Shown here: positions 11,135 to 41,195 of the stretch, in pieces
How positions within the stretch are numbered: the stretch's first letter is position 1
Layout of the letters: every line of letters starts with the position of its first letter
Assembly: GCA_030697795.1 (NCBI GenBank)
Contig: JAUYOV010000004.1
Location: 211,334 to 275,333 of the forward strand
Length of the DNA: 64,000 nt
Reading direction: 5' to 3'
Source: a bacterium
Lineage (GTDB): Bacteria; Patescibacteriota; Minisyncoccia; JACQLN01
Notes under the pieces: generated by a model
Seen by the model: the letters and a program-made list of their open reading frames with translations, nothing else
The model's database searches: none
Told to the model about the DNA's origin: nothing
Position numbers and translations under genes: made by a program

Positions 11135-11145
11135 GTAATACTAAT

Positions 11146-11243: not shown

Positions 11244-13729
11244 TATACCACGAAGTTAATAAACCTGTCTTTAATAAAAATAACTTTTTTTACGGGGGAG
11301 ACAAGATACTTAGAAATATTTTTGTTGTTTTTAGCCGCCGTTTCAACCTCTTTTTGAGAAGAATCTGCTGGCATTTTAATAACCGCGCGCATTCTGGCAT
11401 TAACCTGCACTACTATGTCTACCTCCTTGTCTTTGACCAGTTTAACGTCAAACTTTGGCCAAGGCGCTATATGAATAGATTTTTTATTCTTTAAAATTTC
11501 TCTAAATATTTCCTCGCTCATATGTGGTGCAAAAGGCGCTAAAATCTTAGCAAAAATTTCTAGTTCGCTTTTGCCAACAGATTCTATATTGGCTTCAAAT
11601 TCATTTAACAAAACCATTAAAGCCGAGACCGAAGTATTGTAATTTAAATTTTCTAAATCTTCTGTAACTTTTTTGATTGTCTTGTGTATCTTTGTTTGTA
11701 TATTGGAATTTGCTTGCCCTTCCGAAGCTCTGAAAGAGCGAAGGAGGGTGATTTGTTTAGAAATTAGAAATTGGGAATTAGAAATTTTCCAGATTCTTTC
11801 CAAGAATCTGATTATCCCTTTTATACCACCATCTCTAAAATCACCACCTTGATCGAACGGACCCAAAAACATTAAGTACATTCTTAAAACATCGGCGCCG
11901 TAATTTTTAATATATTCGTCGGGATTAACCACATTCCCCTTGGATTTTGACATTTTAGCGCCATCTTTTATTAACAAACCGTGGGCACGGAATTTTTTAA
12001 ATGGTTCGTCAAAATTAGTTAAACGCAGGTCCTTGAATACCATTGCTAAAAAACGCACATACAATAAATGCAAAACAGAATGCTCCGCGCCACCAATATA
12101 CATATCTACCGGGCACCATTTTTTAGTTACAGATTGATCCCAAGCGTATTTCTTTTCTTTAACAGAAGCATAACGCAAATAATACCAAGCCGAATCTAAG
12201 AAAGTATCGGAAACATCGGTCTCGCGTCTCGCCATACCTTCGCATTTAGGGCATTTAACTTTATAAAATTTTTCATCGGCCGCTAAAGGCGACTGGCTCG
12301 TACCAGTTGGCCTAAAGTTTTTTATGTAAGGCAATCTAACCGGTAAATCTTTTTCGGGCACCACAACCCAACCTGGATTTTCCAACTCTCCCAAATTAAA
12401 TTCTCCCTTATTTTTGAGATTTGATTTTTGAGATTTGATTTTTTCTGCGCAGTTTTCACAGAAAACAAGCGGTATAGGCGCACCCCAATAACGCTGTCTG
12501 GAAATTAGCCAGTCACGAAGCCGGAATTGAATTGTTTTTTTACCTCCACTCTTTTTTATTCCTTCTTCAATAGAGACTAAAGGTGCGCTACTCACTGGTA
12601 ATTTGAATTTTTGGGCAAATTCTAAATCACGCTCATCGTGCGCTGGAACACCCATAACTGCGCCTGTGCCGTAACCTGCTAAAACATAATCCGAAATCCA
12701 AACCGGAACTTTTTCGTTGTTGGCTGGGTTAATGGCCGAGATACCAGAAAAAACTCCTGTTTTTTCTGGACCCCGACCCTCATGAGGCGTCGGGGTTATA
12801 TTATTTTTTATATACTCCCTGACCTCATTCGGCGCTTGCCAGCCGATATCTAACCAAGACTTTGCTTTCTCGGGCGAAATTGCAATAAACGTTACACCAA
12901 AAACTGTATCTGGGCGTGTAGTAAAAACTTCCAAATACGCCGATTCACGCTGATCTGACGCAGATTTACGCAGAAAAATTCCGCGTTGATCCGCGTTAAT
13001 TTCCGCGTTGATCCGCGTAAGGGGAAATTTTATAGAAGCACCTTCCGATTTACCTATCCAATTTTTTTGAGCTATTTTTACTTTTTCGCTCCAATCTATT
13101 TTATCTAAACCTTTTAAAAGTTTATCGGCGTATTTAGTTATTCTAAAAAACCATTGCTCTAATTCTTTTTTAATAACTTTAGTATTACATCTTTCACATT
13201 CACCACTTATTACTTGTTCATCGGCTAAAACTGTTAAACACGAAGGGCACCAATTAACCGCCGATTTTTTGCGGTAAGCCAAACCATTTTTATATAACTG
13301 AATAAAAATCCATTGAGTCCATTTATAATATTCAGGGTCGTAAGTTTCTAGTTTTTCGTGCCAAGCAAAACCATTGCCTATCATTTGCAGTTGGCGATAA
13401 AAATTTTTCTCGGAAACTCTGGCTTGATCCATCGGGTGTTCGCCAATTTTTAAAGCGTAGTTTTCGGAATGTATGCCAAAACCATCTAAACCAATCGGCT
13501 CAAAAACGTTATAGCCCTGCATTCTTTTAAATCGCCCGTAAATATCGCTCCCCACAAAAGCGTACACATTACCCACGTGTAAGCCTTCAGCTGAAGGATA
13601 TGGAAACATCATTAGGTTATAGAAAGGATTCTTAGCGTTTTTAAGATCCGGTTCGTAAACCTTCTCGGCCAGCCATTTTTTGCGCCATTTAGATTCTACT
13701 CTCTTGTGGTTGTATTTAGCCATTTGCAT
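11243..13729 (-). CDS. leuS: Leucyl-tRNA synthetase, carrying several low-complexity or repeat-derived in-frame insertions
   Basis: HIGH-type motif HVGNVYAF; KMSKS; editing-domain TTRPDT. Inserts at about 11717-11750, 12410-12450 and 12979-13023. Confidence 0.9.
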   Translation of the reverse strand: MQMAKYNHKRVESKWRKKWLAEKVYEPDLKNAKNPFYNLMMFPYPSAEGLHVGNVYAFVGSDIYGRFKRMQGYNVFEPIGLDGFGIHSENYALKIGEHPMDQARVSEKNFYRQLQMIGNGFAWHEKLETYDPEYYKWTQWIFIQLYKNGLAYRKKSAVNWCPSCLTVLADEQVISGECERCNTKVIKKELEQWFFRITKYADKLLKGLDKIDWSEKVKIAQKNWIGKSEGASIKFPLTRINAEINADQRGIFLRKSASDQRESAYLEVFTTRPDTVFGVTFIAISPEKAKSWLDIGWQAPNEVREYIKNNITPTPHEGRGPEKTGVFSGISAINPANNEKVPVWISDYVLAGYGTGAVMGVPAHDERDLEFAQKFKLPVSSAPLVSIEEGIKKSGGKKTIQFRLRDWLISRQRYWGAPIPLVFCENCAEKIKSQKSNLKNKGEFNLGELENPGWVVVPEKDLPVRLPYIKNFRPTGTSQSPLAADEKFYKVKCPKCEGMARRETDVSDTFLDSAWYYLRYASVKEKKYAWDQSVTKKWCPVDMYIGGAEHSVLHLLYVRFLAMVFKDLRLTNFDEPFKKFRAHGLLIKDGAKMSKSKGNVVNPDEYIKNYGADVLRMYLMFLGPFDQGGDFRDGGIKGIIRFLERIWKISNSQFLISKQITLLRSFRASEGQANSNIQTKIHKTIKKVTEDLENLNYNTSVSALMVLLNEFEANIESVGKSELEIFAKILAPFAPHMSEEIFREILKNKKSIHIAPWPKFDVKLVKDKEVDIVVQVNARMRAVIKMPADSSQKEVETAAKNNKNISKYLVSPVKKVIFIKDRFINFVV
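11717..11750. repeat. Small palindromic repeat family (core CGAAGCTYTRAGCGAAGGAGG), copy in frame inside leuS
   Basis: Shares the core with copies at 10430-10470, 14263-14293, 35714-35770, 41711-41776 and 53781-53812. Confidence 0.7.
12979..13023. repeat. ATCCGCG-unit GC-rich repeat (TTCCGCGTTGATCCGCGTTAATTTCCGCGTTGATCCGCG) in frame inside leuS
   Basis: Related copies lie in ileS (34941-35009) and polX (48637-48676). All three are in minus-strand genes. Confidence 0.7.
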
Positions 13730-24156: not shown

Positions 24157-25542
24157 TCAATCTCCACCTTTAGTCTCTAAGATCAAACTTTGACTAGAAA
24201 ATATTCTGTCAACCGCCAGGCCTTCGGGTTTAGTAGTAGATTCTATAGTAACCGTGACTGGTAACTTAGCGCCACTAGACACACTATCTTTTACTTTAAT
24301 TTTTAGCGTTATTTCTTTTTTTTCCAGGGGCTCTAGGCCAAAAAGATTGGAAGTGTTATCGCGGTTTAAAATTACGGTTTTAGAAGCAGAATCTAAACCA
24401 GTGCTTGGTTGCACCGAAGTTAAATTAAAACTATCACTATCAAACTTAACTTTTAAGGTTAAATTAGCCAGTGGAATATCTAAATTATTTTGATAACCAA
24501 TTTTATATGTAATCGTCTCACTCGCGCGCGCTGAAGTTATGCCGTCGGGGCTAGTATTTATAAACAAAGCCAAAGGCGCCATAATAAGTTTAACTGTGCC
24601 GCTGGCTTCTTTATATGTTTTCCAACTTGTGCCCTCCGCGCCTTCAACCAAAGCCCTAAAAACCTTGCCTTCACCTTCTAAACCCGTAACCACGCCTTTA
24701 ATAGTTAGGGTTTTTTCTTCTTGAGGCAAAACAGAATCTAGTCTCCAAACATTATTAAATTCAGAAAGTTTTTCCGAAGATTCTATTAGCCTAAAACCGG
24801 CTGGTGACTCCAAACGCAGTCTTAAGTTATTAAAAGCAACTTCGCCTTCGTTTTTTAATTTAAATTTAACCTCTACGTTTTCGCCCGAAATGGTCTCGGC
24901 GGAGGATTCCACGTTTAAACTTACTGGAAAAGAAGAAATTTTTATAGAGGCCGTAGCCATAGATTGAAAAACAATGGTGCCGGCCGAAGGCTTAAAATTA
25001 AAAACTGCCTGTGCCTTTCTTTCAAAATTATCACCGCCAAAAACAACTGCTTTGAACTCTCTTTCATAAAGACCGCTGGGCTTAAGTTCGGGAATATTGA
25101 TAGTTTGCTTTAAAATACTTTGTTTAAATTGATCAGCTTCAGCGGTAGAAATTACCGGCTGCGAAAAATCTGGAAACTGAAAAGTTAAAATACCATCTTT
25201 TAATTCGGTTTCGTTTTTATTAACCAATCGCAATTTCCAAGTAACAGTTTCGCCCGCACTAACTTCGGCCGGTGCATTTATTTTAATTTCTATACGATCT
25301 TTTCTAAAAGCATAAAAACCACGAAAGAAAACATAAACTGCCACAGTTACTGCCAGCAAAAAGAAAACACCCGCGCCTAGAAATATTTTTTTCCAAATAG
25401 CCGGCGAAGGAGTTGTATCTTCTACTGTTGGCGGAGGCACAATAGGCTCTTCTATAGGAATAGCGATATTTTCAACCGGTGGTAAAGTCGGTTTTTCTTC
25501 GGTATAAAGCTTTTTTTGTAGTTCTTCTAAATTATCTGCCAT
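24157..25542 (-). CDS. Single-pass membrane-anchored protein with extracytoplasmic beta-sandwich (DUF11/CARDB-like) repeats
   Basis: Pro-rich N-terminus, one TM (IFLGAGVFFLLAVTVAVYVFF), then about 380 aa of beta-rich repeats. Confidence 0.4.
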   Translation of the reverse strand: MADNLEELQKKLYTEEKPTLPPVENIAIPIEEPIVPPPTVEDTTPSPAIWKKIFLGAGVFFLLAVTVAVYVFFRGFYAFRKDRIEIKINAPAEVSAGETVTWKLRLVNKNETELKDGILTFQFPDFSQPVISTAEADQFKQSILKQTINIPELKPSGLYEREFKAVVFGGDNFERKAQAVFNFKPSAGTIVFQSMATASIKISSFPVSLNVESSAETISGENVEVKFKLKNEGEVAFNNLRLRLESPAGFRLIESSEKLSEFNNVWRLDSVLPQEEKTLTIKGVVTGLEGEGKVFRALVEGAEGTSWKTYKEASGTVKLIMAPLALFINTSPDGITSARASETITYKIGYQNNLDIPLANLTLKVKFDSDSFNLTSVQPSTGLDSASKTVILNRDNTSNLFGLEPLEKKEITLKIKVKDSVSSGAKLPVTVTIESTTKPEGLAVDRIFSSQSLILETKGGD

Positions 25543-26037: not shown

Positions 26038-26388
26038 TCAATGAGTTTTTGACGAGCGGATCCAACCGCCTAACATCCGCCCTATCTCATTAACCATTTC
26101 CTGAATTAAAATATATTTTTTATTCTCTAAAACACCAATATCTTTAGCCAAGCGGACATAAACCCTAAAAAGATTGAGCTTAACACTAACTCTTTCTAAG
26201 TATGTTACTCTTTTGAGCTTATCCAAACTGCTTATTTCCAACAAATAGCCCAATATCTCAATCAAAATCAAATTGCATTTCTCGCCTAAAGAATACTTGT
26301 CTTGCTTGGGAAAACCTTTCAAACAAGCATAAAATTCTTTATATAAATCGTAGGTTTTTTTAAATAGCGGAATATCAAAACTATCCAT
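26038..26388 (-). CDS. avd: Avd-like accessory variability determinant (avd2)
   Basis: 116 aa. C-terminus EIGRMLGGWIRS. Paralog of avd1 and avd3. Start diverges from RT2 with a 2-nt overlap. Confidence 0.75.
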   Translation of the reverse strand: MDSFDIPLFKKTYDLYKEFYACLKGFPKQDKYSLGEKCNLILIEILGYLLEISSLDKLKRVTYLERVSVKLNLFRVYVRLAKDIGVLENKKYILIQEMVNEIGRMLGGWIRSSKTH

Positions 26389-27382
26389 GAAAATTTATCA
26401 AAATATATACGAACAAATAATCTCTGCCGAAAATTTGTTTCTAGCTTGGGCAGAATTCAAAAAAGATAAACAAAAAAGAAAAGACGTTATGCAATTTGAA
26501 TACAGGCTGGAAAAAAATATTTTAGGCTTGTGCCAAGAACTAAAAAATCAAACATATAAGCATAGTCCTTATAGTAATTTTTATATAACCGACCCCAAAC
26601 CCAGGCACATTCACAAAGCATTGGTTAGAGACAGAGTGGTGCACCATTCAGTTTTTAATATCCTTAATCCTGTTTTTGAAAAAACTTTTATCTTTAATTC
26701 TTATTCCTGCAGAAAAAACAAAGGCACTCACAAGGGCATAAACCAATTACACAAAATTTTAAGAAAAATAAGCCAAAACAATCATAAACCATGCTTTATA
26801 TTAAAATGCGATATTAAAAAATTCTTTCAATCAGTTAATCACGGTATTTTGTTAAATATTATTGATCGAAAAATATACGATGAAAAAGCATTGGCCTTAA
26901 TTAAAGAAATTGTAGAGAGTTTTAAACCCGGGTTGCCCATAGGCAACCTAACCAGCCAATTATTTGCCAATATTTATTTAAATAATCTGGACCAATATAT
27001 AAAGCACCATTTAAAAATTCCCTTTTATATAAGATATACCGATGATTTTGTGATTATTTATAACGATTTGGAAAAACTAAAACAGTGGCTTAGCCAGATT
27101 CAGGAATTTTTAAATGTAAACCTAAAACTACGTCTGCATCCCAATAAAGTTATTCTGCGCAAATATCATCAAGGAACTGATTTTTTGGGCTATGTGCAAT
27201 TTCCCCATTATTGTATTTTGCGCCCTAGAACCGAAAGAAGAATAATGAAAAGGATACAGCAGGGAGTTTCTGAACAATCGCTAAATTCATATCTAGGTGT
27301 GCTTTCTCATGCTAATAGTTATAAATTATCGGAAAAAATCAAAAACTTGTTTTGGTTTAATAAAAAAGAAAACCCGTCTTGA
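26387..27382 (+). CDS. DGR reverse transcriptase (RT2)
   Basis: IGNLTSQLFANIYLN (SQ motif); IRYTDDFV. Matches RT1 and RT3 along its length. Confidence 0.85.
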   Translation: MKIYQNIYEQIISAENLFLAWAEFKKDKQKRKDVMQFEYRLEKNILGLCQELKNQTYKHSPYSNFYITDPKPRHIHKALVRDRVVHHSVFNILNPVFEKTFIFNSYSCRKNKGTHKGINQLHKILRKISQNNHKPCFILKCDIKKFFQSVNHGILLNIIDRKIYDEKALALIKEIVESFKPGLPIGNLTSQLFANIYLNNLDQYIKHHLKIPFYIRYTDDFVIIYNDLEKLKQWLSQIQEFLNVNLKLRLHPNKVILRKYHQGTDFLGYVQFPHYCILRPRTERRIMKRIQQGVSEQSLNSYLGVLSHANSYKLSEKIKNLFWFNKKENPS

Positions 27383-28492: not shown

Positions 28493-29038
28493 CTATAAGT
28501 CAATAGTAACCCCAAAATTATTTAAAAACATATCTTTTATCTTTGTTCTAAGAATAGTGGAATCAGCTAATTTAAAATCTGGTGCTCTGGGGTTTAAGCC
28601 ATTGGAATCTAAAATATGATAACACCATAAATAAGCCGACTCCTTTAAGCCTTCTCTAGTAGCATATTTATTATTTAAAATAGAAAAGAAGTTTGCGGTT
28701 TGTTGCCAAATTTTTTCTTCGCCCATACCTGGTTCAAAGATTCTAAATATAATTTGCGTAGCAAAATGCGCCAACTTTAGGCAGTATAAATCATTCTTTA
28801 AAATTAAATGCGAATCCTTAATTTTAAAATCTGTAATTATCGGTATATGTTTTGATGGCACAAAAAAAACTTCGGCATGATTAAACATATCTAGGCCATG
28901 CCTAAGTTTGCCGGTATATTTGCGCACACTTTTAGCCTGCAGTTCCATTAAGCCAAACTCTTTGGTATAAAGTGTAAAAACCGCATCAGCTTCACGGCGA
29001 GGTGTGTTTTTTAAAATAATGCCTTCTATAGATTTCAT
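28493..29038 (-). CDS. RecO-like recombination mediator (short, N-terminal OB-fold type)
   Basis: N-terminus IEGIILKNTPRREADAVFTLYTKEFGLMELQAKSVRK resembles the RecO N-domain. No C-terminal zinc finger. Confidence 0.45.
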   Translation of the reverse strand: MKSIEGIILKNTPRREADAVFTLYTKEFGLMELQAKSVRKYTGKLRHGLDMFNHAEVFFVPSKHIPIITDFKIKDSHLILKNDLYCLKLAHFATQIIFRIFEPGMGEEKIWQQTANFFSILNNKYATREGLKESAYLWCYHILDSNGLNPRAPDFKLADSTILRTKIKDMFLNNFGVTIDL

Positions 29039-32447: not shown

Positions 32448-33794
32448 ATGAATAATCTAACTCCTAGGCAAAAACAAATCCTTGATTTTGTAACTAAATA
32501 TAGCAATAAGAAAGGCTATGCTCCTTCCCATAAAGAAATCGGGAAATATTTTAAACTTACTTCCTCTGCCACCATTAATGAGCACCTAGATGCCATTGCA
32601 AGTAAGGGTTATATAAATAAAGAAAAACATCAAAAAAGAAATATAGAAATTAAATCTTTAGAAACATTGGTTTCCGTACCCCTTGTTGGAACCATCACGG
32701 CTGGTGAACCAATAGAAACATATGAAATCCCAGAAAAAATATCAGTACCAAAAAACCTTTTATCTCAACAGGGTGAACACTTTGCTTTAACAGTTAATGG
32801 TAATAGTATGATTGGCGAAGGAATTTTTAGTGGAGATACAGTGATTGTTCGTAAGCAAGATACTGCAAAAGACGGAGATAGTATAGTTGCACTTATAAAT
32901 GGAAGTGAAACAACATTAAAAAAGATATATAAAGAAAAAAATGGCTTTAGGCTTCAACCAGCTAATCCAGAACTCAAACCAATATTTGTAAAACAACTTG
33001 AAATACAAGGCAGGGTTATAAGTGTCATTCGTAATCTAGAAACCTTAGTAAATAAAATTAACTGTGGCGATGTTTTGGAAACAATTAAAAAAATACCAGA
33101 AAGTTCAGTACACCTAGCAATAACTTCCCCGCCATATAACGTTGGAAAAAGCTATGATAATCATAACGATAAAATGGAGTATTCTGACTATCTTGATTGG
33201 TTGTATAAAGTTTGGCAGGAAACAAAAAGAGTTTTAGTTCCTGGTGGAAGATTTGCTATAAATATTGCTCCAACTGGTATAAAAGATTTTGTACCAATAC
33301 ATCACGATTTTATAGCTCAACTCAGGAAACTCGGAATGAAATTTCGAACAGAAATTATATGGTACAAACAAACAATGCTAAAACGAACTGCGTGGGGAAG
33401 TTTTAAAAGCCCAGCCAACCCACATATTGTTCCGTCTTGGGAATATGTTTTGATTTTCTCTAAAGATCAAGATCGTTTAGATGGAGATAGTAAAATGGCT
33501 GATATTACCAAAGATGAGTTTATGAAATTTTCCGATGGATTTTGGCAGATTTGGCCAGAAAGACAAAGAAAAGGACATCCAGCTCCATTTCCCGAAGATT
33601 TAATATATAGATTAGTAAAATTCTATTCCTATAAAGATAGTACTATTTTGGATATGTTTGGAGGAACAGGCACAGTAGCAACTGTAGCCGCCAAAACTGG
33701 TAGAAATTTTATACACATAGATGTTTCTCCTCAATACTGTAAAATCGCTAAAGACAGACTAGAAAAAGAAATTAACCAAGGAAAGTTAGTTTAA
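32448..33794 (+). CDS. Fusion protein: LexA-like repressor (wHTH plus S24 self-cleaving peptidase) fused to a beta-class amino (N4/N6) DNA methyltransferase
   Basis: Residues 1-200 match LexA (HTH; Ser in VNGNSM; catalytic Lys in TLKKI; C-terminal QGRVISVIR). Residues 200-448 carry MTase motif IV SPPY (LAITSPPYNVGKSYD) and an AdoMet motif (DMFGGTGT). Confidence 0.7.
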   Translation: MNNLTPRQKQILDFVTKYSNKKGYAPSHKEIGKYFKLTSSATINEHLDAIASKGYINKEKHQKRNIEIKSLETLVSVPLVGTITAGEPIETYEIPEKISVPKNLLSQQGEHFALTVNGNSMIGEGIFSGDTVIVRKQDTAKDGDSIVALINGSETTLKKIYKEKNGFRLQPANPELKPIFVKQLEIQGRVISVIRNLETLVNKINCGDVLETIKKIPESSVHLAITSPPYNVGKSYDNHNDKMEYSDYLDWLYKVWQETKRVLVPGGRFAINIAPTGIKDFVPIHHDFIAQLRKLGMKFRTEIIWYKQTMLKRTAWGSFKSPANPHIVPSWEYVLIFSKDQDRLDGDSKMADITKDEFMKFSDGFWQIWPERQRKGHPAPFPEDLIYRLVKFYSYKDSTILDMFGGTGTVATVAAKTGRNFIHIDVSPQYCKIAKDRLEKEINQGKLV

Positions 33795-34364
33795 TTTGTT
33801 TGAATACCAATTAACAAGGTCTTTGGCTAAACTACTTAATGCTTTTAACTTGCCTCCTAATTTAGTTTTGTTGTTTTCAATATATATTCCGTCTGTATAA
33901 TGGGAACCTAGTTGTCTATCTTTTGTTGGACTTTCTTCACTACCCCATTCTGACTGCCAAGACCGCCCACTTTGCTGTCTTCCTTTGTCAGGAGTAGAGA
34001 AAACAAATTTTAAACTTGGAATCATATCTTTTAAAACAACAGCATAAAATAATGATTCTGAAAGTCTTCCGTGTAAACTAGTTTTACAACTTATAATTGC
34101 AACGGGATTGTTGTTTCCATCAACTACAACAAGATCTATATCGCCCCAAATTCTTTGATTAGAATTAATTTTGCCAACGGGAATACTAAGTTTTTTCCAT
34201 AAACTACTATCATTTCTAGCATCATCACCTCTTATGACTTTTAATTTAGATTTAAGAGAAATCAAATCTTGATTTACTTTATCTCTGACAAAATGCTCCC
34301 AAGCTCTACCGCTTTTTTGGACATATCTTTGTCTTTGACTATTTGTTTCGTAGTTATTAGGCAT
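33786..34364 (-). CDS. Putative PD-(D/E)xK restriction endonuclease, convergent with and overlapping the methyltransferase by 9 nt
   Basis: Core GDIDLVVVDGNNNPVAIISCKTS fits the D...(D/E)xK pattern. 192 aa. Confidence 0.4.
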   Translation of the reverse strand: MPNNYETNSQRQRYVQKSGRAWEHFVRDKVNQDLISLKSKLKVIRGDDARNDSSLWKKLSIPVGKINSNQRIWGDIDLVVVDGNNNPVAIISCKTSLHGRLSESLFYAVVLKDMIPSLKFVFSTPDKGRQQSGRSWQSEWGSEESPTKDRQLGSHYTDGIYIENNKTKLGGKLKALSSLAKDLVNWYSNKLN

Positions 34365-34370
34365 ATTATT

Positions 34371-37300
34371 TTAAATATTTTTAATCCCCACCCCGATTTC
34401 AAATCCTTCATAATTCCAAACTTTGTGGACCAAGAAATTTTCGTGTTCGGTTATGCCAAAGTTAATTTGTGTAGAACGAGTTTCGGCTTTTATAACTTGT
34501 TCCCAACGAGTTAATAATTCTTTAAAGTTGGCGTTTTGGTTAAGTTCGTAATGTAAAATTATTTTATCTTCTGGTGTTAATTTGGCTTCTTTTCGCATTT
34601 CGTTTATATTGCGAATCATTTCACGAACCATTCCTTCTTCCTTAAGCTCCGCCGTAAGTTCGGTATCCAAATTAACGTTGTTCTTTTCTATTTTTCTATC
34701 ACTTAAAACTTTTTTAACATTGAGTTCTTCGGCAACTATATATAGAACATCGCCAATTAAATTGTAATCAGCCGGTGAAACATATAAAGCATTTAAGGGC
34801 TGGCGTACGCGCAAACCCGCTTGAGCGCGCTCGGCAAGCCCCAGCGCCACAATTTCGCGGGCTCTATCCATGACTTTCGTAATATCGGAAGCCTTAACAG
34901 TTTTGGTATTTGGCCATTTTTCCAAATGAACCGACTCCCCAAACGCCGATAAACGCCGATTTTTATCCGCGCTGATCCGCGCTGATCCTTGCGTTAATCC
35001 GCGTAATTCTTGATAGAGCCATTCCGATATAAACGGCGCAAATGGCCCCATAACAACAGATACGCGTTTTAAAACTTCGGTTAAAGTATTTTGAGCCGAT
35101 AGTTTTTCGGCATCTATATTTTGCTTTTGGAACTTACGGCGGCTACGGCGTATATACCAATTAGAAAGTTCGTCTATAAAAGCTTCTATAGCACGCGAAG
35201 CGGAAGTAATGTCGTAGCTTTCTAAAAATTTATTTACTTCGAACTCCAACATTTCTGTTTTAATCAAAACCCATTTATCTAAAATATCTGTTTTGGCTAG
35301 TAAAGATTTCGGAGCTTCGGTGTAATAAGTTTCTAAAAACAAAAACGAATTAATTAAAGTATCGGCGAATCTACGTTTTTTAGATTCTATATCGCGCAAA
35401 CTAAAAAGTTTATTATCGCCCGGCGCGTTTACAGTGTAAAAATACCAACGCATCATATCGAACCCAACTTTCTCACCCACCAGCCAAGGGTCTACAATGT
35501 TCCCTTTAGACTTCGACATCTTCTCGCCCTTTTCATCTAGAACATGGTTTAAACTAATTACATTCTTATACGGATTACCTTCGCCTAAAGCGGTAGATAC
35601 CGCCATTAAAGTATAAAACCAGCCCCGGGTTTGATCGATCGCTTCGCAAATATAATCTGCTGGAAAATGGTCTTTCGGTAAATTTTTATTTTTTATATTT
35701 AAATTTTTCTTGTCCTTCGAAGCCTTGCTGTGCCACTCCGTAGCTTTGAGCGAAGGGTGGGCGTAGGAGGAAACTTGAGACGCCCACGGCATTGCACCCG
35801 AATCAAACCAAACATCGGCCAAGTCTTTTATACGTTCCATCTTCGAGGAACACATAGAACACTTAAGGAACACGCTATCGGCATAGGGGCGATGCAGGTT
35901 TAAATTGCCTTCTTCATCGTGGGGCCAGTTATTTGTTTCTACAAAAGTAAATTCGGCAGGGGACAAAGCTAGTTTAGAATCTTTAACTGCGTTTTGATAC
36001 AAAAGTTTTGTTTCGTCTTCGCCATAAATTCCATTAGATAATTGCATTAAAAATAAGGGGTCCATATGGCTTACCACAACCACCTTCTTGCCAGCGTGTT
36101 CTCTAGAAACATCCATCATAAATTCGCGCACCCGTTTGGCCACATCCAACCACGATTCGCCTGCCGGCGCGGGGCGAATAAATTTATCTTTAAAAGAATT
36201 AAAATATTTTTCATATTCCAAAAATGGCCCGCCATTAAACTCGCCAGTGTTTATTTCGCGTAAGCGTTCATCAAAAATTACTTCTTTTATTTTAAGTTCG
36301 TCCGCCAATATTTGAGCCGTCTCTCTGGCTCTTAATAGATCCGATGAATATATGGCCGATACCTTATTAGCCGCCAAAAGTTTTTTTATATTTTGGGCGG
36401 ATGCCTCTGCTTGTTTTCTACCCTTTTCGGTTAGGGGGTTTAAAATCTTTTCAGGGTAAGCACTGCAAATACCTTTAGCGTTAGATTCTGCTTCGCCATG
36501 GCGCATTAAAATTAAAGTGGTTGGAGAATCTAGGCGGTGTTCGTTAAGCTCGGCTAAAGAACCAATAACAGTTTTGTGTTCGCATTTGGTGCATGCCCAA
36601 ATTGGCAAGGGTGTTCCCCAATAGCGTTCGCGGCTTATAGCCCAGTCTTTAACCTCGCGTAACCATTCGCCAAACCGGCCATCTTTAATGTGTTCGGGCA
36701 CCCAATTAACTTTTTCGTTATTTTTAATTAGATCGTTTCTTAACGCCGACATTTTTATAAACCAACTTTCTTGGGCGTAATATAGTAAGGGCGATTTACA
36801 CCTCCAGCAAAAAGGATATTCGTGCTTATAGCTTGACTCATTAAACAGCAAATTTTGTTTTTTTAAGTAAAACAAAATCGTTTTTTCGGTTATGGGGTCT
36901 TTTTTGTTTTCACTAACAACAGCAAGCCCGCCTACTATAGGAACAGATTTTACAAAAACTCCTTCACGATTAACCGTGTGGAATTTAGGCAAATTTAATT
37001 TGGAACCGAGTTCAAAATCGTCGACGCCATACATTACGGCTGTATGCACAATGCCCGTACCATCTGCGGTAGTTACAAAATCGGCTTCGTAAACTCTGTA
37101 CGAATTTTCGGATTCCAACTCTTTAACAGCAAAAAGTGGTTCGTAAGAAAGTCTAGTAAGCTCGCTAGAAGTTAGTTCTTTATTTATTTTGTATTCTACT
37201 TTAGCCTCGCCAAAAACTTTAGGCGCTAAATCGCGAGCCAAAATATATTTTTCACCATTAGCTTCGACTTCTACATAGGTAACTTTCGGGCCAACAGCTA

Positions 37301-38003
37301 ACGCAACATTTCCCGGTAACGTCCAAGGCGTCGTGGTCCAAGCCAAAAGAAAAGTGTTTTCTCCGCCAGCTGGCGGATTTTTAACTTTAAATTTTATTAT
37401 GACCGACTTATCTGTAACTGTTTCGTAACCCTGCGCCACTTCGTGGCTGGAGATGGGCGTACCACACCTAACACAAAAAGGCACAACTTTATAATCTTTA
37501 ACTAAAAGTTTTTTATCGTAAATTCTTTTTATAATATTCCACAAACTTTCTATGTATTGCGGTTCGTAGGTTATGTATGGGTTTTTAAGGTCGAGCCAGT
37601 AACCCATGCGGCGCGTTAGCTTTTCCCATTCATCTTTATACTGCCAGACTGATATTTGGCATTCTTTATTAAATTGAGCGATGCCGTATTTTTCTACTTC
37701 GCGCTTATTTTTTAAACCTAATTTTTTTTCGACTTCAATTTCTACCGGCAAACCGTGTGTATCCCAACCAGCCCGACGCAAAACATAGCGCCCTTTCATT
37801 GTTTGAAAACGGCAAACAATATCTTTAAACGATCTAGCTAAAACATGATGGAGCCCTGGTTTACCGTTGGCCGTAGGCGGGCCTTCGTAAAATACGAAAG
37901 GTTTACCATCTTTAGTGGCTTTTAAAGTCTTTTCAAAAACATCGTTATCGTGCCAATGTTTTAAAACTTTTTCTTCTTCTTGGGGTAAATCAACGTGACG
38001 CAT
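34371..38003 (-). CDS. ileS: Isoleucyl-tRNA synthetase with an inserted histidine-phosphatase (PGAM-like) domain and repeat-derived in-frame inserts
   Basis: HIGH-type motif PPTANGKPGLHHV; KMSKS; editing domain. The insert LILMRHGEAESN...VVVSHMD (RHG and second His motifs) sits between WACTKCEH and LHRPYAD. Confidence 0.9.
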   Translation of the reverse strand: MRHVDLPQEEEKVLKHWHDNDVFEKTLKATKDGKPFVFYEGPPTANGKPGLHHVLARSFKDIVCRFQTMKGRYVLRRAGWDTHGLPVEIEVEKKLGLKNKREVEKYGIAQFNKECQISVWQYKDEWEKLTRRMGYWLDLKNPYITYEPQYIESLWNIIKRIYDKKLLVKDYKVVPFCVRCGTPISSHEVAQGYETVTDKSVIIKFKVKNPPAGGENTFLLAWTTTPWTLPGNVALAVGPKVTYVEVEANGEKYILARDLAPKVFGEAKVEYKINKELTSSELTRLSYEPLFAVKELESENSYRVYEADFVTTADGTGIVHTAVMYGVDDFELGSKLNLPKFHTVNREGVFVKSVPIVGGLAVVSENKKDPITEKTILFYLKKQNLLFNESSYKHEYPFCWRCKSPLLYYAQESWFIKMSALRNDLIKNNEKVNWVPEHIKDGRFGEWLREVKDWAISRERYWGTPLPIWACTKCEHKTVIGSLAELNEHRLDSPTTLILMRHGEAESNAKGICSAYPEKILNPLTEKGRKQAEASAQNIKKLLAANKVSAIYSSDLLRARETAQILADELKIKEVIFDERLREINTGEFNGGPFLEYEKYFNSFKDKFIRPAPAGESWLDVAKRVREFMMDVSREHAGKKVVVVSHMDPLFLMQLSNGIYGEDETKLLYQNAVKDSKLALSPAEFTFVETNNWPHDEEGNLNLHRPYADSVFLKCSMCSSKMERIKDLADVWFDSGAMPWASQVSSYAHPSLKATEWHSKASKDKKNLNIKNKNLPKDHFPADYICEAIDQTRGWFYTLMAVSTALGEGNPYKNVISLNHVLDEKGEKMSKSKGNIVDPWLVGEKVGFDMMRWYFYTVNAPGDNKLFSLRDIESKKRRFADTLINSFLFLETYYTEAPKSLLAKTDILDKWVLIKTEMLEFEVNKFLESYDITSASRAIEAFIDELSNWYIRRSRRKFQKQNIDAEKLSAQNTLTEVLKRVSVVMGPFAPFISEWLYQELRGLTQGSARISADKNRRLSAFGESVHLEKWPNTKTVKASDITKVMDRAREIVALGLAERAQAGLRVRQPLNALYVSPADYNLIGDVLYIVAEELNVKKVLSDRKIEKNNVNLDTELTAELKEEGMVREMIRNINEMRKEAKLTPEDKIILHYELNQNANFKELLTRWEQVIKAETRSTQINFGITEHENFLVHKVWNYEGFEIGVGIKNI
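34941..35009. repeat. ATCCGCG-unit repeat in frame inside ileS
   Basis: AAACGCCGATAAACGCCGAT...ATCCGCGCTGATCCGCGCTGATCC..TAATCCGCG. Confidence 0.7.
35714..35770. repeat. Small palindromic repeat family, copy in frame inside ileS
   Basis: CCTTCGAAGCC...CCGTAGCTTTGAGCGAAGGGTGGGCGTAGGAGG. Confidence 0.7.
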
Positions 38004-38022: not shown

Positions 38023-39018
38023 TTAAGCTAGCGGAAAATAAGACATTAGTAAAATATCGGTAATTCCATAAGTATTCCCATGCTTCAACAACCCCAAATA
38101 AGAACTTACCGTTTCTGGCTCTGGGTTCTCTCCAATTCTTTTCATCATCCGTTTTTTAGTAACTGTTCTTAAAACTTTATGATCTGTAAAATGAACCCAA
38201 CCCAAAAAATCCGCACCCGAAGCTAGAGTTTTGATAAAAACTTTGTCGGGGTGGAGTGTGAGTTTGAGATTTTTAATTAAAAATTCTTGAATCTTTGGGA
38301 TTAAGTTCTCTAACCATTCTTTGTCTTGCGATAAAACCACAAAATCATCGGGGTATCTAATGTAATACTTAACTTTTAATTTATGTTTAACAAACTGGTC
38401 AAACTTGTTCATATAGATATTCACCAAAAGCTGGGAGGTTAAATTGCCCAAGGGCAAACCAATATTGGGTTTTGTTTTAAAACTGGACACAACATTATTG
38501 AGTAACCAAATAATATTTTTGTCTGGTATATATTCAGTTAGTATCTCTAGCAAAACTTTGTGATGAATACTGGAAAAGAATTTTTTAATGTCGCATTTTA
38601 AGACCCAGCAAGTTTTAGTGTTATTTTGACCAACTTTGTAAGCAAAAGACTGAAAACGATTCAGGGCTTTATGCGTGCCTTTGTTCTTTCGGCAAGAAAA
38701 AGAATCGGCTATGAATGTTTTATCAAAGAAAGGGTAAAGAATATGATAAATTGCGTGGTGAAGTAGCCTATCCCGAACTGTGGCTTTATGTATGTTTCGG
38801 GGTTTGGGGTCGGAAATATTGAAAGCTTGGTAAATGCCATGCCGATAAGTGAAATTGACCAAGTCTTGGTTAAGTTGAAAAATATTATCCATTAAATTAA
38901 AGCCAAATTCCTGCACATCTTTTCTTTTTCTCTTGCCTTTGATAAACTCCTGCCAAGCCAATAACAAATTATCAACGCTAATAACATCTTCAAAACTATG
39001 GATCAATTGAGTTTTCAT
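38023..39018 (-). CDS. DGR reverse transcriptase (RT3)
   Basis: LGNLTSQLLVNIYMN (SQ motif); IRYPDDFV. Paralog of RT1 and RT2. Confidence 0.85.
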   Translation of the reverse strand: MKTQLIHSFEDVISVDNLLLAWQEFIKGKRKRKDVQEFGFNLMDNIFQLNQDLVNFTYRHGIYQAFNISDPKPRNIHKATVRDRLLHHAIYHILYPFFDKTFIADSFSCRKNKGTHKALNRFQSFAYKVGQNNTKTCWVLKCDIKKFFSSIHHKVLLEILTEYIPDKNIIWLLNNVVSSFKTKPNIGLPLGNLTSQLLVNIYMNKFDQFVKHKLKVKYYIRYPDDFVVLSQDKEWLENLIPKIQEFLIKNLKLTLHPDKVFIKTLASGADFLGWVHFTDHKVLRTVTKKRMMKRIGENPEPETVSSYLGLLKHGNTYGITDILLMSYFPLA

Positions 39019-39035
39019 AATTCTACATTAAGTAA

Positions 39036-39046
39036 CCCCCCCCCCC
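39036..39046. repeat. Homopolymer C11 in the 53-bp divergent RT3/avd3 intergenic region
   Basis: 11 consecutive C. A similar C10 tract at 19677-19686 sits between RT1 and avd1. Confidence 0.9.
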
Positions 39047-39071
39047 GAGACTTCCACCGCTGATTGATAAA

Positions 39072-39443
39072 ATGAAAAATCTCTATTTTATCTGGTTTCA
39101 ATACTACCAGATTTTACCCAAAGCGCATCGCTACACGCTTGGCCGCAGAATTGACTCTATGTTTATTGAAATAGTTGAAGCGATAGTTACAGCGTCTTTT
39201 CTAACGCAAGAAAAGAAGCTCCCGTTTGTTCAGCACGCCCTTCGCAAAACAGACACGCTTAAAATCCTATTACAAGTATTATGGGAAACTAAATCTTTAG
39301 ATGATAAAAAATATATAGCCGTATCAAAACCTTTAGAAGAAATCGGCAAAATGCTGGGTGGCTGGAATGGCCAGCTTCAAAAACCCCTCGACATAGCTCG
39401 GGATAAAGAAAACTCTCCCCACAAAAAGCAGAGAGAGAAATAA
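39072..39443 (+). CDS. avd: Avd-like accessory variability determinant (avd3)
   Basis: 123 aa. C-terminal EEIGKMLGGW motif. Confidence 0.75.
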   Translation: MKNLYFIWFQYYQILPKAHRYTLGRRIDSMFIEIVEAIVTASFLTQEKKLPFVQHALRKTDTLKILLQVLWETKSLDDKKYIAVSKPLEEIGKMLGGWNGQLQKPLDIARDKENSPHKKQREK

Positions 39444-39447
39444 AGAA

Positions 39448-39573
39448 AGTTGCGAGCACGGCCGAAGGATTGTTGGCATTCCAGTCGTTCTCAAGCCAGT
39501 TGTAGTTCCAGTCCCACTCACCATCGTTCCAGTAGAGATAAAGAACGTTGCGGTTGCCATTCGGACTGCGAAT
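39448..39573 (-). repeat. DGR template repeat TR3
   Basis: Encodes RSPNGNRNVLYLYWNDGEWDWNYNWLENDWNANNPSAVLA. Begins 5 nt after the avd3 stop. Confidence 0.85.
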
Positions 39574-39824
39574 ATATTGTATAAAGCGCCACCTATGCCA
39601 CCACCCCTTGAATACTCTTAGGGTTGTATCGTATTTGGTATCTAAAATACCCTAGCGCTATATACCGAGTATCTTCATTTTTTTAAGCTTCCATAAACCA
39701 CCCTATTCCCAACCGTAATCGGGAATACTCTCGATTTATGGTTACTGGCTTCGGTAGCAGGCAACCTTAATCGCCCGCGTATTCACCTAATACCATTTGC
39801 ATAATAACATTTTGCAAAAGAAAA

Positions 39825-39851
39825 TTCCCTACGACATTACGTCGTAGGGAA
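39825..39851 (-). promoter_or_regulatory. Hairpin TTCCCTACGAC-loop-GTCGTAGGGAA about 54 bp downstream of VR3
   Basis: 11-bp stem. Confidence 0.4.
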
Positions 39852-39902
39852 TTTAGAGTACAAAGTCCAAAGGATCTAAAAGTTCTAGAATTCTAAGGAC
39901 TA

Positions 39903-40547
39903 TTAACTCGCGAGCACGGCCGAAGGATCGTAGGCACTCCAGCCGCCCTCAAGCCAGCGGCAGTACCAGCCCCACCCACCACCGCCCCAGCAGAGACAAA
40001 GAACGTAGCGGCGGCCAAGCGGACCGCGAAGGGTGGTGCCGTCAAAGGAAATGAAGGTGGTATTGCTGTTCGTTTTTTCTTTCCAACTTTCGGGAATAAG
40101 ACTCTTGTTTTCCCAGAGAGTTTGGAAGATTTTGGCATCTAGGCGGACGTAATTTTTGGCTTTGAGGCGCTTCAGTTTCTCTTCACCTTTGATGACACTC
40201 TCGTCTTCTTTGAGGCAAGTGACTAACTGGATGTTGGAGAGGTCTAGCTCGGTGAGGTTGAGAGAGCGCTCATCCTGTTCTTCCTCGCCCGAGAGACCAT
40301 CGCCATCTGCTGGACCTTTCCAGATGCTCCAACCTTCGCCCAAAAACTGGGCGGGGTTGAAGGGTTGGGTGCGGTTGATTTTTAAGACCGTATCTCCAAA
40401 ACGCCCCTCCACCGCATTCTGCAAATAGCGTTGGAGTTTTGCCGGATCGTAGGGATAACCCTTGGGCTGACGAAGCTGTCGGCCAATTTCAAAAAGCTGG
40501 CCAGTGATGCTTTCGTACAGTTCGCCTGCGACACTAGGATGTGCCAT
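39903..40547 (-). CDS. DGR target protein 3 (C-terminal variable domain); GC-rich
   Basis: 214 aa. VR3 at the C-terminus. Confidence 0.8.
   Translation of the reverse strand: MAHPSVAGELYESITGQLFEIGRQLRQPKGYPYDPAKLQRYLQNAVEGRFGDTVLKINRTQPFNPAQFLGEGWSIWKGPADGDGLSGEEEQDERSLNLTELDLSNIQLVTCLKEDESVIKGEEKLKRLKAKNYVRLDAKIFQTLWENKSLIPESWKEKTNSNTTFISFDGTTLRGPLGRRYVLCLCWGGGGWGWYCRWLEGGWSAYDPSAVLAS
39905..40030 (-). repeat. DGR variable repeat VR3 (3-prime end of target 3)
   Basis: Encodes RGPLGRRYVLCLCWGGGGWGWYCRWLEGGWSAYDPSAVLA. 24 substitutions relative to TR3, all at TR adenines. Confidence 0.85.
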
Positions 40548-40754: not shown

Positions 40755-41195
40755 ATGGAGGCCAAAACAAACAAAAAGGCGTTTTTTAATTACGAAATCC
40801 TAGAAAAGTTCGAGGCGGGTTTGGTGTTGCTTGGAGGCGAAGTTAAATCTATAAGAAATAATCATTACAGTTTACAAGGCGCATACATAACAGTAGAAGA
40901 TGAAGAGGCTTGGTTAGTGAAAGCCATGATCGCCCCTTACCAGCCTAAAAATATGAGCGGGCAGTATAACCCCGAACGCAAGCGCAAACTTTTACTTAAC
41001 AAAAAAGAACTCCAGTATTTACAAGGAAAAACAAAGGAAAAAGGCTTGACTATTGTGCCTCTAAAAGTTTACAATAAGCACGGTCAAATCAAGTTAGAAA
41101 TTGCTTTAGCCAAAGGTAAAAGCAAGGGCGATAAGAGAGAAGTTCTTAAAAAACGTATCGCCGACCGAGATATCGCCAGAGAACTTAAATCTTGA
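40755..41195 (+). CDS. smpB: SsrA-binding protein
   Basis: Matches SmpB along its length (FFNYEILEKFEAGLVLLGGEVKSIR...). Confidence 0.9.
   Translation: MEAKTNKKAFFNYEILEKFEAGLVLLGGEVKSIRNNHYSLQGAYITVEDEEAWLVKAMIAPYQPKNMSGQYNPERKRKLLLNKKELQYLQGKTKEKGLTIVPLKVYNKHGQIKLEIALAKGKSKGDKREVLKKRIADRDIARELKS

What the first reader, a model, noticed from the sequence alone, without database searches (positions are those of the whole stretch)
36400..36720. IleS carries an inserted histidine-phosphatase (PGAM-like) domain
Between the conserved segments ...PIWACTKCEH and LHRPYAD..., where class-I IleS normally has only a short linker, this protein contains about 190 aa beginning LILMRHGEAESN (RHGE catalytic motif) and later VVVSHMD (second His). 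These are hallmarks of the histidine phosphatase / phosphoglycerate-mutase superfamily. A phosphatase or phosphotransferase module inside an aminoacyl-tRNA synthetase is not a standard architecture.
Basis: partly seen in the sequence, partly recalled or inferred. Interest (0 to 1): 0.7.

Follow-up and report, generated by a model that had tools for sequence, protein, structure and literature searches.

The report
Phosphatase domain nested inside isoleucyl-tRNA synthetase
The isoleucyl-tRNA synthetase of this ultra-small (Patescibacteria/CPR) bacterium really does carry a complete, apparently active histidine-phosphatase enzyme inside its catalytic region; this layout is shared by hundreds of related bacteria, came from the neighbouring gene, was not found in the papers searched, and has an unknown purpose.

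Summary
The ORF at window 34371-38003 (minus strand, 1210 aa) is a type-2 IleRS. A 206-aa insert (aa 491-696, window 35916-36533) matches Pfam His_Phos_1 at E=5e-35. It replaces 3 residues at the tip of a Cys4 zinc hairpin, compared with the solved Priestia IleRS2 structure.

It is not an assembly chimera. More than 190 IleRS proteins from independent assemblies carry the insert at the same site. The catalytic residues R-H-R-E/D-E-H are kept in 320 of 337 domain copies. dN/dS in the insert (0.09) equals that of the flanks. AlphaFold folds it confidently as a PhoE/PspA-like phosphatase, not a true phosphoglycerate mutase.

New finding: in sister lineages the same phosphatase is a separate gene between argS and ileS (52 of 80 genomes), or nested in IleRS (27 of 80), within the same SmpB...RecO syntenic block. 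Rare variants carry extra copies at other IleRS sites, in tandem, or fused to ArgRS or TsaC. More distant relatives have no phosphatase at this locus.

Function is unresolved. My best reading is an autonomous phosphomonoesterase captured from the operon neighbour. A direct role in aminoacylation is possible (about 0.35). I found no paper describing it.

The parts
34371..38003 (-). ileS gene: type-2 IleRS with a nested histidine phosphatase, 1210 aa
   Evidence: One ORF. TIGR00392 scores 837.7 bits; Pfam finds tRNA-synt_1, His_Phos_1, Anticodon_1 and DUF5915. A 100% identical protein occurs in an NCBI MAG (P0119).
36534..38003 (-). IleRS N-terminal part (aa 1-490): first half of the catalytic fold, the CP1/editing domain, and the first half of the zinc hairpin
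   Evidence: Aligns to 8c8w residues 12-478. The editing-domain motifs WTTTPWT and GTGIVHTA are invariant or nearly invariant in 119 homologues.
37845..37856 (-). GLHH (aa 50-53): non-canonical G/AXHH version of the class-I HIGH signature
   Evidence: H52 is present in 117/119 and H53 in 119/119 homologues. The motif is described in PMC10485003 as conferring mupirocin hyper-resistance.
36582..36593 (-). First cysteine pair of the zinc hairpin (C471-x-x-C474)
   Evidence: C471 is present in 119/119 and C474 in 116/119 homologues; translation checked.
35916..36533 (-). Inserted histidine phosphatase domain with its linkers (aa 491-696)
   Evidence: Boundaries come from the alignment to 8c8w. AlphaFold pLDDT is mostly above 85 within the full-length model and 90.4 when modelled alone. 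Foldseek finds PspA, PhoE, TIGAR, Rv2419c and CobC at TM about 0.7. dN/dS is 0.089.
36054..36515 (-). Pfam His_Phos_1 match (aa 497-650)
   Evidence: E=5.3e-35, profile positions 1-151 of 194.
36495..36503 (-). RHG motif (R501, H502 as the predicted phospho-acceptor, G503)
   Evidence: R501 and H502 are present in 119/119 homologues; translation checked.
36330..36332 (-). R558, phosphate-binding arginine
   Evidence: Present in 119/119 homologues.
36255..36257 (-). E583, predicted proton donor (aligns with the Glu of the PhoE motif LREIHLGDWEG)
   Evidence: 107 homologues have E and 12 have D, of 119; alignment to PhoE.
36066..36068 (-). H646, second catalytic histidine
   Evidence: Present in 119/119 homologues.
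35850..35861 (-). Second cysteine pair of the zinc hairpin (C715-x-x-C718)
   Evidence: Both present in 119/119 homologues.
34374..35915 (-). IleRS C-terminal part (aa 697-1210): second half of the catalytic fold, KMSKS, the anticodon-binding domains and DUF5915
   Evidence: Aligns to 8c8w residues 482-887 and beyond; Pfam Anticodon_1 at 909-1071 and DUF5915 at 1073-1185.
35508..35522 (-). KMSKS loop (aa 828-832)
   Evidence: Invariant or nearly invariant in 119 homologues.
35670..35780 (-). Lineage-specific, probably disordered loop (aa 742-778), at the position where some relatives carry a second phosphatase domain (site S2)
   Evidence: Most homologues have a gap here; pLDDT is below 50 for aa 747-768; site-S2 inserts occur in P0265 and P0358.
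40755..41195 (+). smpB, an anchor of the conserved syntenic block (context only)
   Evidence: Pfam SmpB. It holds the same relative position in 60-plus related loci.
28493..29038 (-). recO-like gene, the other synteny anchor (context only)
   Evidence: Pfam RecO_N; it lies downstream of ileS in related loci.

Best explanation
The protein is a genuine two-enzyme polypeptide. The host is a type-2 IleRS with an intact editing domain, KMSKS loop and zinc-hairpin cysteines, and with the known non-canonical GLHH signature. The guest is a complete histidine phosphatase of about 195 aa of the small PhoE/PspA type, whose N- and C-termini leave and re-enter IleRS at the tip of the Cys4 hairpin. That hairpin lies in the connective-peptide region, probably CP2. 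The guest derives from the phosphatase cistron that sits between argS and ileS in sister Patescibacteria; a rearrangement inside this operon placed the whole reading frame, end to end, into ileS. I infer that the two modules fold and catalyse independently. IleRS would perform normal two-step aminoacylation. The phosphatase would use the family mechanism: H502 attacks a phosphomonoester, R501, R558 and H646 hold the phosphate, E583 protonates the leaving group, and water then releases phosphate from phospho-His. On this reading the phosphatase acts on a small soluble phosphoester in parallel with the aminoacylation cycle, not within it. Nesting would mainly guarantee 1:1 co-production with IleRS and would be hard to reverse. 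Shown here: the architecture, its recurrence, residue conservation, purifying selection, the fold, and the origin from the neighbouring gene. Inferred: enzymatic activity, independence of the two modules, and the type of substrate.
For: Architecture and identity rest. Recurrence: all 120 best full-length homologues (45-83% identity; NCBI, ENA, JGI and Logan assemblies) carry PF00300. Of the 150 best 50%-identity representatives, 82 are IleRS with the insert. In an IleRS-seeded metagenome scan, 44 of 80 loci have it embedded, plus one truncated locus with the phosphatase directly ahead of the IleRS C-terminal part; these include every complete locus at 52% identity or more. Activity is plausible because R501, H502, R558, E616 and H646 are invariant in 119 sequences and E583 is E or D in all, and the hexad is kept in 320 of 337 domain copies, with most exceptions being truncated fragments. 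Selection: dN/dS is 0.089 in the insert against 0.085 and 0.094 in the flanks, measured against an 83%-identical homologue. Fold: full-length model pLDDT 90.5 and pTM 0.88; insert alone 90.4 and 0.88; nearest structures are PspA, PhoE, TIGAR, Rv2419c and CobC. Origin: in 79 of 80 GTDB genomes the phosphatase is either a separate ORF between argS and ileS (52 genomes, often less than 30 bp from ileS) or embedded in IleRS (27 genomes), always within SmpB|ArgRS...IleRS-RecO. The window has the same smpB...ileS...recO block. The embedded copy spans the free-standing protein from about residue 3 to its last residue. Independence from IleRS geometry is suggested by extra copies at other IleRS sites (just before the anticodon domain; after DSGxMP), by tandem copies, and by ArgRS and TsaC fusions. 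Caution against reading function from fusion: CPR TsaC is commonly fused to unrelated DNA-repair domains. More distant GXHH IleRS in the same syntenic block have no phosphatase within 5 kb.
Against: No activity or substrate has been tested. A purely passive capture does not easily explain three observations. None of 52 adjacent gene pairs is a simple end-to-end fusion, while internal nesting is common. Several lineages have added further intact copies inside IleRS. The phosphatase stays next to ileS in a different gene context as a TsaC fusion whose start overlaps the ileS stop. These points favour a functional tie to IleRS.
Confidence: 0.5

Rival explanations
1. The phosphatase is mechanistically coupled to aminoacylation or adenylate chemistry. 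It would remove a phosphate-bearing product or inhibitor made at class-I aaRS and TsaC active sites (AMP, pyrophosphate, adenylate-derived side products), or it would repair a phosphorylated macromolecule (a 3'-phosphorylated tRNA end, or a phosphorylated synthetase loop). Tethering would put it where the substrate arises.
For: Every fusion partner found is an ATP-to-AMP+PPi enzyme acting on or for tRNA: IleRS (82 of 150 representatives), ArgRS (1) and TsaC (2). There were several independent captures, at different IleRS sites and in tandem, all with intact catalytic residues. The operon argS-hp-ileS has gaps of a few bases. The phosphatase accompanies ileS in a non-syntenic context as TsaC::HP. 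A HIT nucleotide hydrolase lies between the phosphatase and ileS in one lineage. Simple end-to-end fusions to IleRS are absent despite adjacency.
Against: All partners are also physical neighbours, so proximity alone can explain who gets fused. CPR TsaC is widely fused to functionally unrelated domains. The insertion sites are spread over the enzyme, including one next to the anticodon domain, which argues against a defined geometry toward the CCA end. Related GXHH IleRS in the same synteny lack any nearby phosphatase, and ArgRS::HP and free HP also occur where ileS has left the locus. From my own knowledge, no branch-1 histidine phosphatase is known to act on pyrophosphate or RNA ends. HIT was not found in any of the 80 GTDB loci. 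Some CPR have canonical pyrophosphatases (PMC5220378, PMC4736985).
Confidence: 0.35
2. The insert is the organism's glycolytic cofactor-dependent phosphoglycerate mutase, riding inside IleRS.
For: The best-scoring specific NCBIfam model is the short archaeal dPGM family (NF038349, 99 bits). Some source pipelines name free-standing relatives 'probable phosphoglycerate mutase'.
Against: The score of 99 bits is far below the 225-bit cutoff, and other dPGM models score 37-53 bits against cutoffs of 261-316. The segment after the catalytic Glu reads E-I-N-T-G, like the PhoE and PspA phosphatases, rather than the E-R-H-Y-G of mutases (from my own knowledge). The nearest structures are phosphatases. 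A Parcubacterium is reported to use a cofactor-independent mutase (PMC5220378).
Confidence: 0.05
3. The domain is catalytically silent and serves as a structural, tRNA-binding or metabolite-sensing appendage.
For: aaRS often acquire non-catalytic appended domains (general knowledge). The insert evolves about 1.7 times faster at the protein level than the flanks (dN 0.146 against 0.074-0.091).
Against: The nucleophile His, both Arg, both Glu and the second His are invariant or nearly invariant across sequences as little as about 35% identical, in free, nested and fused copies alike. This is the pattern expected of an active enzyme.
Confidence: 0.05
4. The feature is an artefact or a selfish element: an assembly chimera, an intein, or a mobile insertion.
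For: None beyond the unusual architecture.
Against: The junction recurs at the same site in more than 190 proteins from independent projects, some seen on up to 21 contigs. There are no intein or endonuclease domains. The insert boundaries have no flanking direct or inverted repeats. Composition is similar to the flanks. Purifying selection acts on the insert.
Confidence: 0.01

Closest known systems
Type-2 IleRS with the non-canonical G/AXHH signature (Deinococcus radiodurans IleRS2; GVHH mutants of Priestia megaterium IleRS2, PDB 8c8w; PMC10485003)
   Same: Best sequence and fold match for the host enzyme. It shares the GxHH motif, the CP1 editing domain, the Cys4 hairpin, KMSKS and the type-2 C-terminal domains, including DUF5915.
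   Different: The solved enzymes have 3 residues where this protein has a 206-aa phosphatase. Neither that paper nor a 2026 preprint on IleRS domain evolution mentions a phosphatase or Patescibacteria.
Small broad-specificity branch-1 histidine phosphatases: Geobacillus PhoE (1ebb, 1h2e) and Hydrogenobacter phosphoserine phosphatase PspA (4ij5)
   Same: Closest solved relatives of the insert by sequence (E about 1e-14) and by fold (TM about 0.7). Same size and same catalytic residues.
   Different: Those are free-standing enzymes with known substrates. The insert scores below the PspA equivalog cutoff (78.8 against 350), and its substrate is unknown.
Free-standing Patescibacteria histidine phosphatase encoded between argS and ileS (for example P0240, P0009)
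   Same: 41-46% identical to the window's insert. Between some free and nested copies identity reaches 73% (L049 against L051). Same invariant residues and same syntenic block.
   Different: It is a separate cistron; the IleRS in those genomes has the short hairpin.
Bifunctional RNase H / acid phosphatase (Rv2228c type, NCBIfam PRK07238)
   Same: Another nucleic-acid enzyme joined to a CobC/PhoE-like histidine phosphatase. It is the second-best NCBIfam hit for the insert (95.5 bits), and RNase H fusions appear among more distant relatives.
   Different: That is an end-to-end fusion with a different partner. The score is below the cutoff of 326.
IleRS with an added N-acetyltransferase domain (NCBIfam NF040702, ileS_w_GNAT)
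   Same: A precedent for an IleRS that carries an extra catalytic domain.
   Different: The domain family is different. The window protein scores 288 bits against a cutoff of 1999, so it is not a member.

Membership tests
Isoleucyl-tRNA synthetase (TIGR00392 ileS) | Whole-protein score above the curated cutoff | tested here: met
   837.7 bits against 621.4.
Isoleucyl-tRNA synthetase | Class-I signature motifs (HIGH-type and KMSKS) and the CP1 editing-domain motifs | tested here: met
   GLHH at aa 50-53 (the known G/AXHH variant), KMSKS at 828-832, and WTTTPWT and GTG.VH conserved.
Isoleucyl-tRNA synthetase | Aminoacylation of tRNA-Ile | not testable with these tools
   Needs biochemistry.
Type-2 IleRS, G/AXHH subclass (PMC10485003) | Gly/Ala at motif position 1 and His at position 3; type-2 C-terminal domains | tested here: met
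   GLHH; best matches are IleRS2 structures and MupA/MupB-like models; DUF5915 is present.
Type-2 IleRS, G/AXHH subclass | Mupirocin hyper-resistance | not testable with these tools
   Predicted from the motif only.
Histidine phosphatase superfamily, branch 1 (Pfam PF00300) | Profile score above the gathering threshold | tested here: met
   121.3 bits against 21.7, E=5.3e-35.
Histidine phosphatase superfamily, branch 1 | Catalytic core: RHG, a second Arg, an acidic proton donor and a second His | tested here: met
   R501, H502, R558 and H646 are invariant in 119 sequences and E583 is E or D in all; E616 is also invariant. The hexad including E616 is kept in 320 of 337 copies.
Histidine phosphatase superfamily, branch 1 | Alpha/beta/alpha fold of the family | tested here: met
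   AlphaFold pLDDT 90.4; Foldseek probability 1.00 to PspA, PhoE, TIGAR and CobC.
Histidine phosphatase superfamily, branch 1 | Phosphatase or mutase activity through a phospho-His intermediate | not testable with these tools
   Needs an enzyme assay.
Cofactor-dependent phosphoglycerate mutase (dPGM proper) | Score above the equivalog cutoffs | tested here: not met
   NF038349 99.2 against 225; PRK03482 52.7 against 261; PRK01295 37.4 against 316.
Alpha-ribazole phosphatase CobC, phosphoserine phosphatase PspA, phosphohistidine phosphatase SixA | Score above the equivalog cutoffs | tested here: not met
   84.4 against 162.9; 78.8 against 350; 37.6 against 74.5.
Intein or mobile insertion | Splicing or endonuclease domains; terminal repeats or target-site duplication | tested here: not met
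   No such Pfam hits; only short chance repeats and none at the boundaries.

The most novel reading that the evidence does not exclude
The phosphatase is a dedicated accessory enzyme of class-I aminoacyl-tRNA synthesis in Patescibacteria. It would be a previously unrecognised activity that services IleRS and ArgRS, for example by destroying a phosphate-bearing by-product or inhibitor, or by repairing phosphorylated tRNA ends or synthetase loops. Evolution would have repeatedly tethered it to the synthetase: as an operon neighbour, nested at several sites, multiplied, or fused to ArgRS or TsaC.
Probability: 0.35. Interest if true: 0.8.

Novelty: new variant of a known kind. Interest (0 to 1): 0.6.

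Why it matters
aaRS are among the most conserved and best-studied enzymes, so a second, apparently active catalytic centre nested in the catalytic region of an essential synthetase is unusual. Here it is maintained across a major bacterial radiation and repeatedly re-invented at other sites. If the phosphatase serves aminoacylation, it would reveal an unknown requirement of translation in these minimal, symbiotic cells. If it does not, it is a clear natural example of how an operon neighbour becomes an internal domain, with the free, nested and multiplied forms all still extant for comparison. There is also a practical consequence: annotation pipelines label these proteins only as 'class I tRNA ligase', so the phosphatase is invisible in metabolic reconstructions of CPR genomes.

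Tried and rejected
Chimera, intein or mobile element: rejected on recurrence, the absence of relevant domains and repeats, and purifying selection.

True phosphoglycerate mutase: rejected as a family assignment, because every specific model is far below its cutoff.

HIT hydrolase as a conserved partner: it appears only in the lineage of L001-L004 and is absent from the 80 GTDB loci.

Second phosphatase copy in the window: none found.

All of these loci cover the same genomic region, so the result is uninformative.

Literature: eight full-text searches for a description of this architecture (IleRS or tRNA synthetase with histidine phosphatase, His_Phos_1, phosphoglycerate mutase, Patescibacteria or CPR) returned nothing relevant. 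Two further searches on pyrophosphatases in CPR returned only passing mentions.

Direction of the free-to-nested change: I tried to infer it from a neighbour-joining tree of IleRS with the insert removed. The two states are interleaved, and the closest phosphatase pair crosses states (73% identity). The tree has no support values and at least one IleRS looks recombinant, so I draw no conclusion on the number or direction of events.

The '4-copy' IleRS P0239: discounted. It has an in-frame stop in the last copy and sits on a 2x-coverage contig.

Scan with a broad alignment of free phosphatases: the first attempt failed for lack of a conserved stretch; a narrower alignment worked.

Source contig of the exact window protein: not on record in the contig index.
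Full report
WHAT IS THERE. The interval lies in one uninterrupted ORF on the minus strand, window 34371-38003, 1210 aa. NCBIfam calls it IleRS (TIGR00392, 837.7 bits, cutoff 621.4). Pfam finds tRNA-synt_1, Anticodon_1 and DUF5915, and also His_Phos_1 at aa 497-650 (E=5.3e-35). Against the solved type-2 IleRS of Priestia megaterium (8c8w), residues 8-490 and 697-1134 align to chain residues 12-478 and 482-887. So 206 residues (aa 491-696, window 35916-36533) stand where the solved enzyme has three. The insert lies between two conserved cysteine pairs (C471/C474 and C715/C718), at the tip of a Cys4 hairpin. By position this hairpin falls outside the catalytic-core segments delimited in PMC10485003 (residues 40-168 and 513-632 of PmIleRS2), in the connective-peptide region and probably CP2 (this is an inference).

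IS IT REAL? Yes.
- A 100% identical protein exists in an NCBI MAG.
- All 120 best full-length homologues (45-83% identity; NCBI, ENA, JGI and Logan; labelled Jorgensen-, Wildermuth-, Sung-, Azam-, Pace-bacteria and Minisyncoccia) carry PF00300.
- In an exhaustive search of 1.84 billion representatives with the insert alone, 82 of the best 150 are IleRS with the domain inside.
- In a metagenome scan seeded with the IleRS body from which the insert had been removed, 44 of 80 loci have it embedded, plus one truncated locus where the phosphatase runs straight into the IleRS C-terminal part. These include every complete locus at 52% identity or more.
- There are no intein or endonuclease domains, no terminal repeats at the boundaries and no composition break.

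IS THE PHOSPHATASE INTACT? R501, H502, R558, E616 and H646 are invariant in 119 sequences, and E583 is Glu or Asp in all of them. Across 337 domain copies (nested, free or fused) the hexad is kept in 320, and most exceptions are truncated fragments. Against an 83%-identical homologue (L096), dN/dS is 0.089 in the insert and 0.085 and 0.094 in the N- and C-terminal IleRS parts. The insert changes about 1.7 times faster at the protein level, and synonymous sites are near saturation. AlphaFold models the first 1075 residues with pLDDT 90.5 and pTM 0.88, with the insert well ordered. The insert alone gives 90.4 and 0.88. Foldseek places the host next to IleRS2 structures. It places the insert next to PspA, PhoE, TIGAR, Rv2419c and CobC at TM about 0.7. 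Every specific NCBIfam model (dPGM, GpmB, CobC, PspA, SixA) is far below its cutoff. So the domain is a generic small branch-1 phosphatase, and 'PGAM-like' is true only at superfamily level.

WHERE IT CAME FROM. The closest free-standing relatives (about 190 aa, 41-46% identical) are Patescibacteria proteins. Their genes lie immediately upstream of an IleRS gene that lacks the insert, downstream of argS, in a block smpB(-) | argS - hp - ileS - recO. A scan of GTDB species genomes returned 80 loci:
- in 52 the phosphatase is a separate ORF between argS and ileS, and in 28 of these the phosphatase and IleRS matches lie 32 bp or less apart;
- in 27 it is embedded in IleRS at the same hairpin;
- one locus ends at a contig edge.

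The window shows the same block: L20, IF3 and smpB at 40.7-43.1 kb, ileS, and recO at 28.5-29.0 kb. So does its 83%-identical relative. The nested copy corresponds to the free protein from about residue 3 to its last residue, joined by short conserved linkers. Some free and nested copies are 73% identical. A rough neighbour-joining tree interleaves the two states. It has no support values and recombination is likely, so I do not count events.

OTHER ARRANGEMENTS. Several IleRS carry further copies, and all copies keep the catalytic residues:
- a second domain just before the anticodon-binding domain (P0258, P0319, P0357);
- one after the DSGxMP strand (P0265, P0358);
- tandem pairs at the hairpin (P0276, P0252, P0290).

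The same subfamily is also found in three other forms:
- fused to the C-terminus of ArgRS, where ileS has left the locus (P0316, L008);
- fused to TsaC, directly downstream of and overlapping an insert-less ileS in a different gene context (P0353, L009-L011);
- as tandem double phosphatases.

Two findings limit how much function can be read from this. First, CPR TsaC is very often fused to unrelated domains (Ogt-like, TruB, a DNA glycosylase), and the TsaC-phosphatase fusion forms only 5 clusters. Second, more distant GXHH IleRS in the same synteny have other genes, or nothing related, between argS and ileS, and no phosphatase within 5 kb.

HOW IT PROBABLY WORKS. The IleRS part has all the elements of a working, editing-competent type-2 enzyme. 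Its GLHH motif is the known G/AXHH variant linked to mupirocin hyper-resistance (PMC10485003). The phosphatase part has everything needed for the family's phospho-histidine mechanism.

I consider it most likely (0.5) that the two act independently. On this reading a small-molecule phosphomonoesterase was captured from the neighbouring cistron. It is now co-produced 1:1 with IleRS, and it is locked in because precise excision from an essential gene is improbable.

The main rival (0.35) is real coupling to adenylate or tRNA chemistry: removal of AMP, PPi or adenylate side-products, or repair of phosphorylated tRNA ends or synthetase loops. Supporting it, internal captures recur, end-to-end IleRS fusions are absent despite adjacency, further copies have been added, and the ArgRS and TsaC partners are also adenylate-forming tRNA enzymes. 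Against it, all partners are physical neighbours, the insertion sites are scattered, some lineages lack the phosphatase at this locus, and I know of no precedent for such substrates in this branch of the family. Some CPR do have canonical pyrophosphatases and a cofactor-independent mutase.

The other readings are unlikely: a true mutase (0.05), a silent structural domain (0.05) and an artefact (0.01).

NOVELTY. Both domain families and the GXHH IleRS2 are known, and the fused proteins sit in public databases labelled only 'class I tRNA ligase family protein'. Eight full-text searches for a description of the architecture, and two recent papers on IleRS2 evolution and structure, gave none. I rate it a new variant of a known kind: an aaRS with an extra catalytic domain, here nested, widespread, and evolutionarily mobile between cistron and domain.

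Noticed in passing
window 38023-40547: A diversity-generating retroelement lies directly next to ileS, between ileS and smpB. It comprises a reverse transcriptase (38023-39018, minus strand), a bAvd-like accessory gene (39072-39443, plus strand) and a 126-nt repeat pair at 80% identity (39447-39572 and 39905-40030). The second repeat copy lies at the 3' end of a GC-rich ORF (39903-40547, minus strand), the likely variable target. The 83%-identical relative L096 lacks this cassette.
   Followed up: partly
window 26387-27382: A second reverse transcriptase gene (331 aa, RVT_1) lies near a DUF11/CLIPPER-like surface protein (24157-25542). No template/variable repeat pair was detected within 23.8-27.6 kb.
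   Followed up: partly
window 32448-34364: One 448-aa ORF combines a LexA DNA-binding domain, an S24 peptidase domain and an N6/N4 DNA methylase. It overlaps a BsaWI-like restriction endonuclease gene (33786-34364, minus strand). This would be a restriction-modification pair whose methylase is fused to a LexA-type repressor. It sits immediately downstream of ileS and is absent from the relative L096.
   Followed up: no
window 37845-37856: The IleRS signature motif is GLHH rather than HxGH. This is the G/AXHH variant shown experimentally to give mupirocin hyper-resistance in type-2 IleRS. It is near-universal in the 119 homologues, whereas the Moranbacteria-like loci L005 and L006 have the canonical HYGH.
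   Followed up: partly
window 35670-35780 (aa 742-778): A lineage-specific, lysine- and asparagine-rich loop that is predicted to be disordered. It lies exactly where some relatives (P0265, P0358) carry a second phosphatase domain.
   Followed up: partly
L001 7347-10421: This insert-less IleRS looks recombinant. Its N-terminal half is of the GLHH type, like the window's. Its C-terminal half is nearly identical to that of the HYGH-type IleRS in L005 and L006.
   Followed up: no
L001 5833-5988, L005 5844-5993, L006 5845-5991: A conserved ORF of 48-51 aa with a hydrophobic C-terminal half lies immediately upstream of the free-standing phosphatase gene in Moranbacteria-like loci. Its function is unknown.
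   Followed up: no
L098 366-3947 (P0239): An IleRS fragment with three to four phosphatase copies, one of them at yet another site (after aa 418). It has an in-frame TAA inside the last copy, and the phosphatase reading frame continues after the stop. The contig has 2x coverage, so this may be a sequencing error or a pseudogene.
   Followed up: partly
proteins P0391-P0505: Patescibacteria TsaC (t6A synthesis) is very commonly fused to an Ogt-like DNA-binding domain (PF01035), and sometimes to TruB or a 3-methyladenine glycosylase. This shows that gene fusions in these genomes need not join related functions.
   Followed up: no
window 10487-13729: A plain TsaC gene (218 aa) lies directly next to LeuRS (828 aa). 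Neither carries a phosphatase domain.
   Followed up: partly
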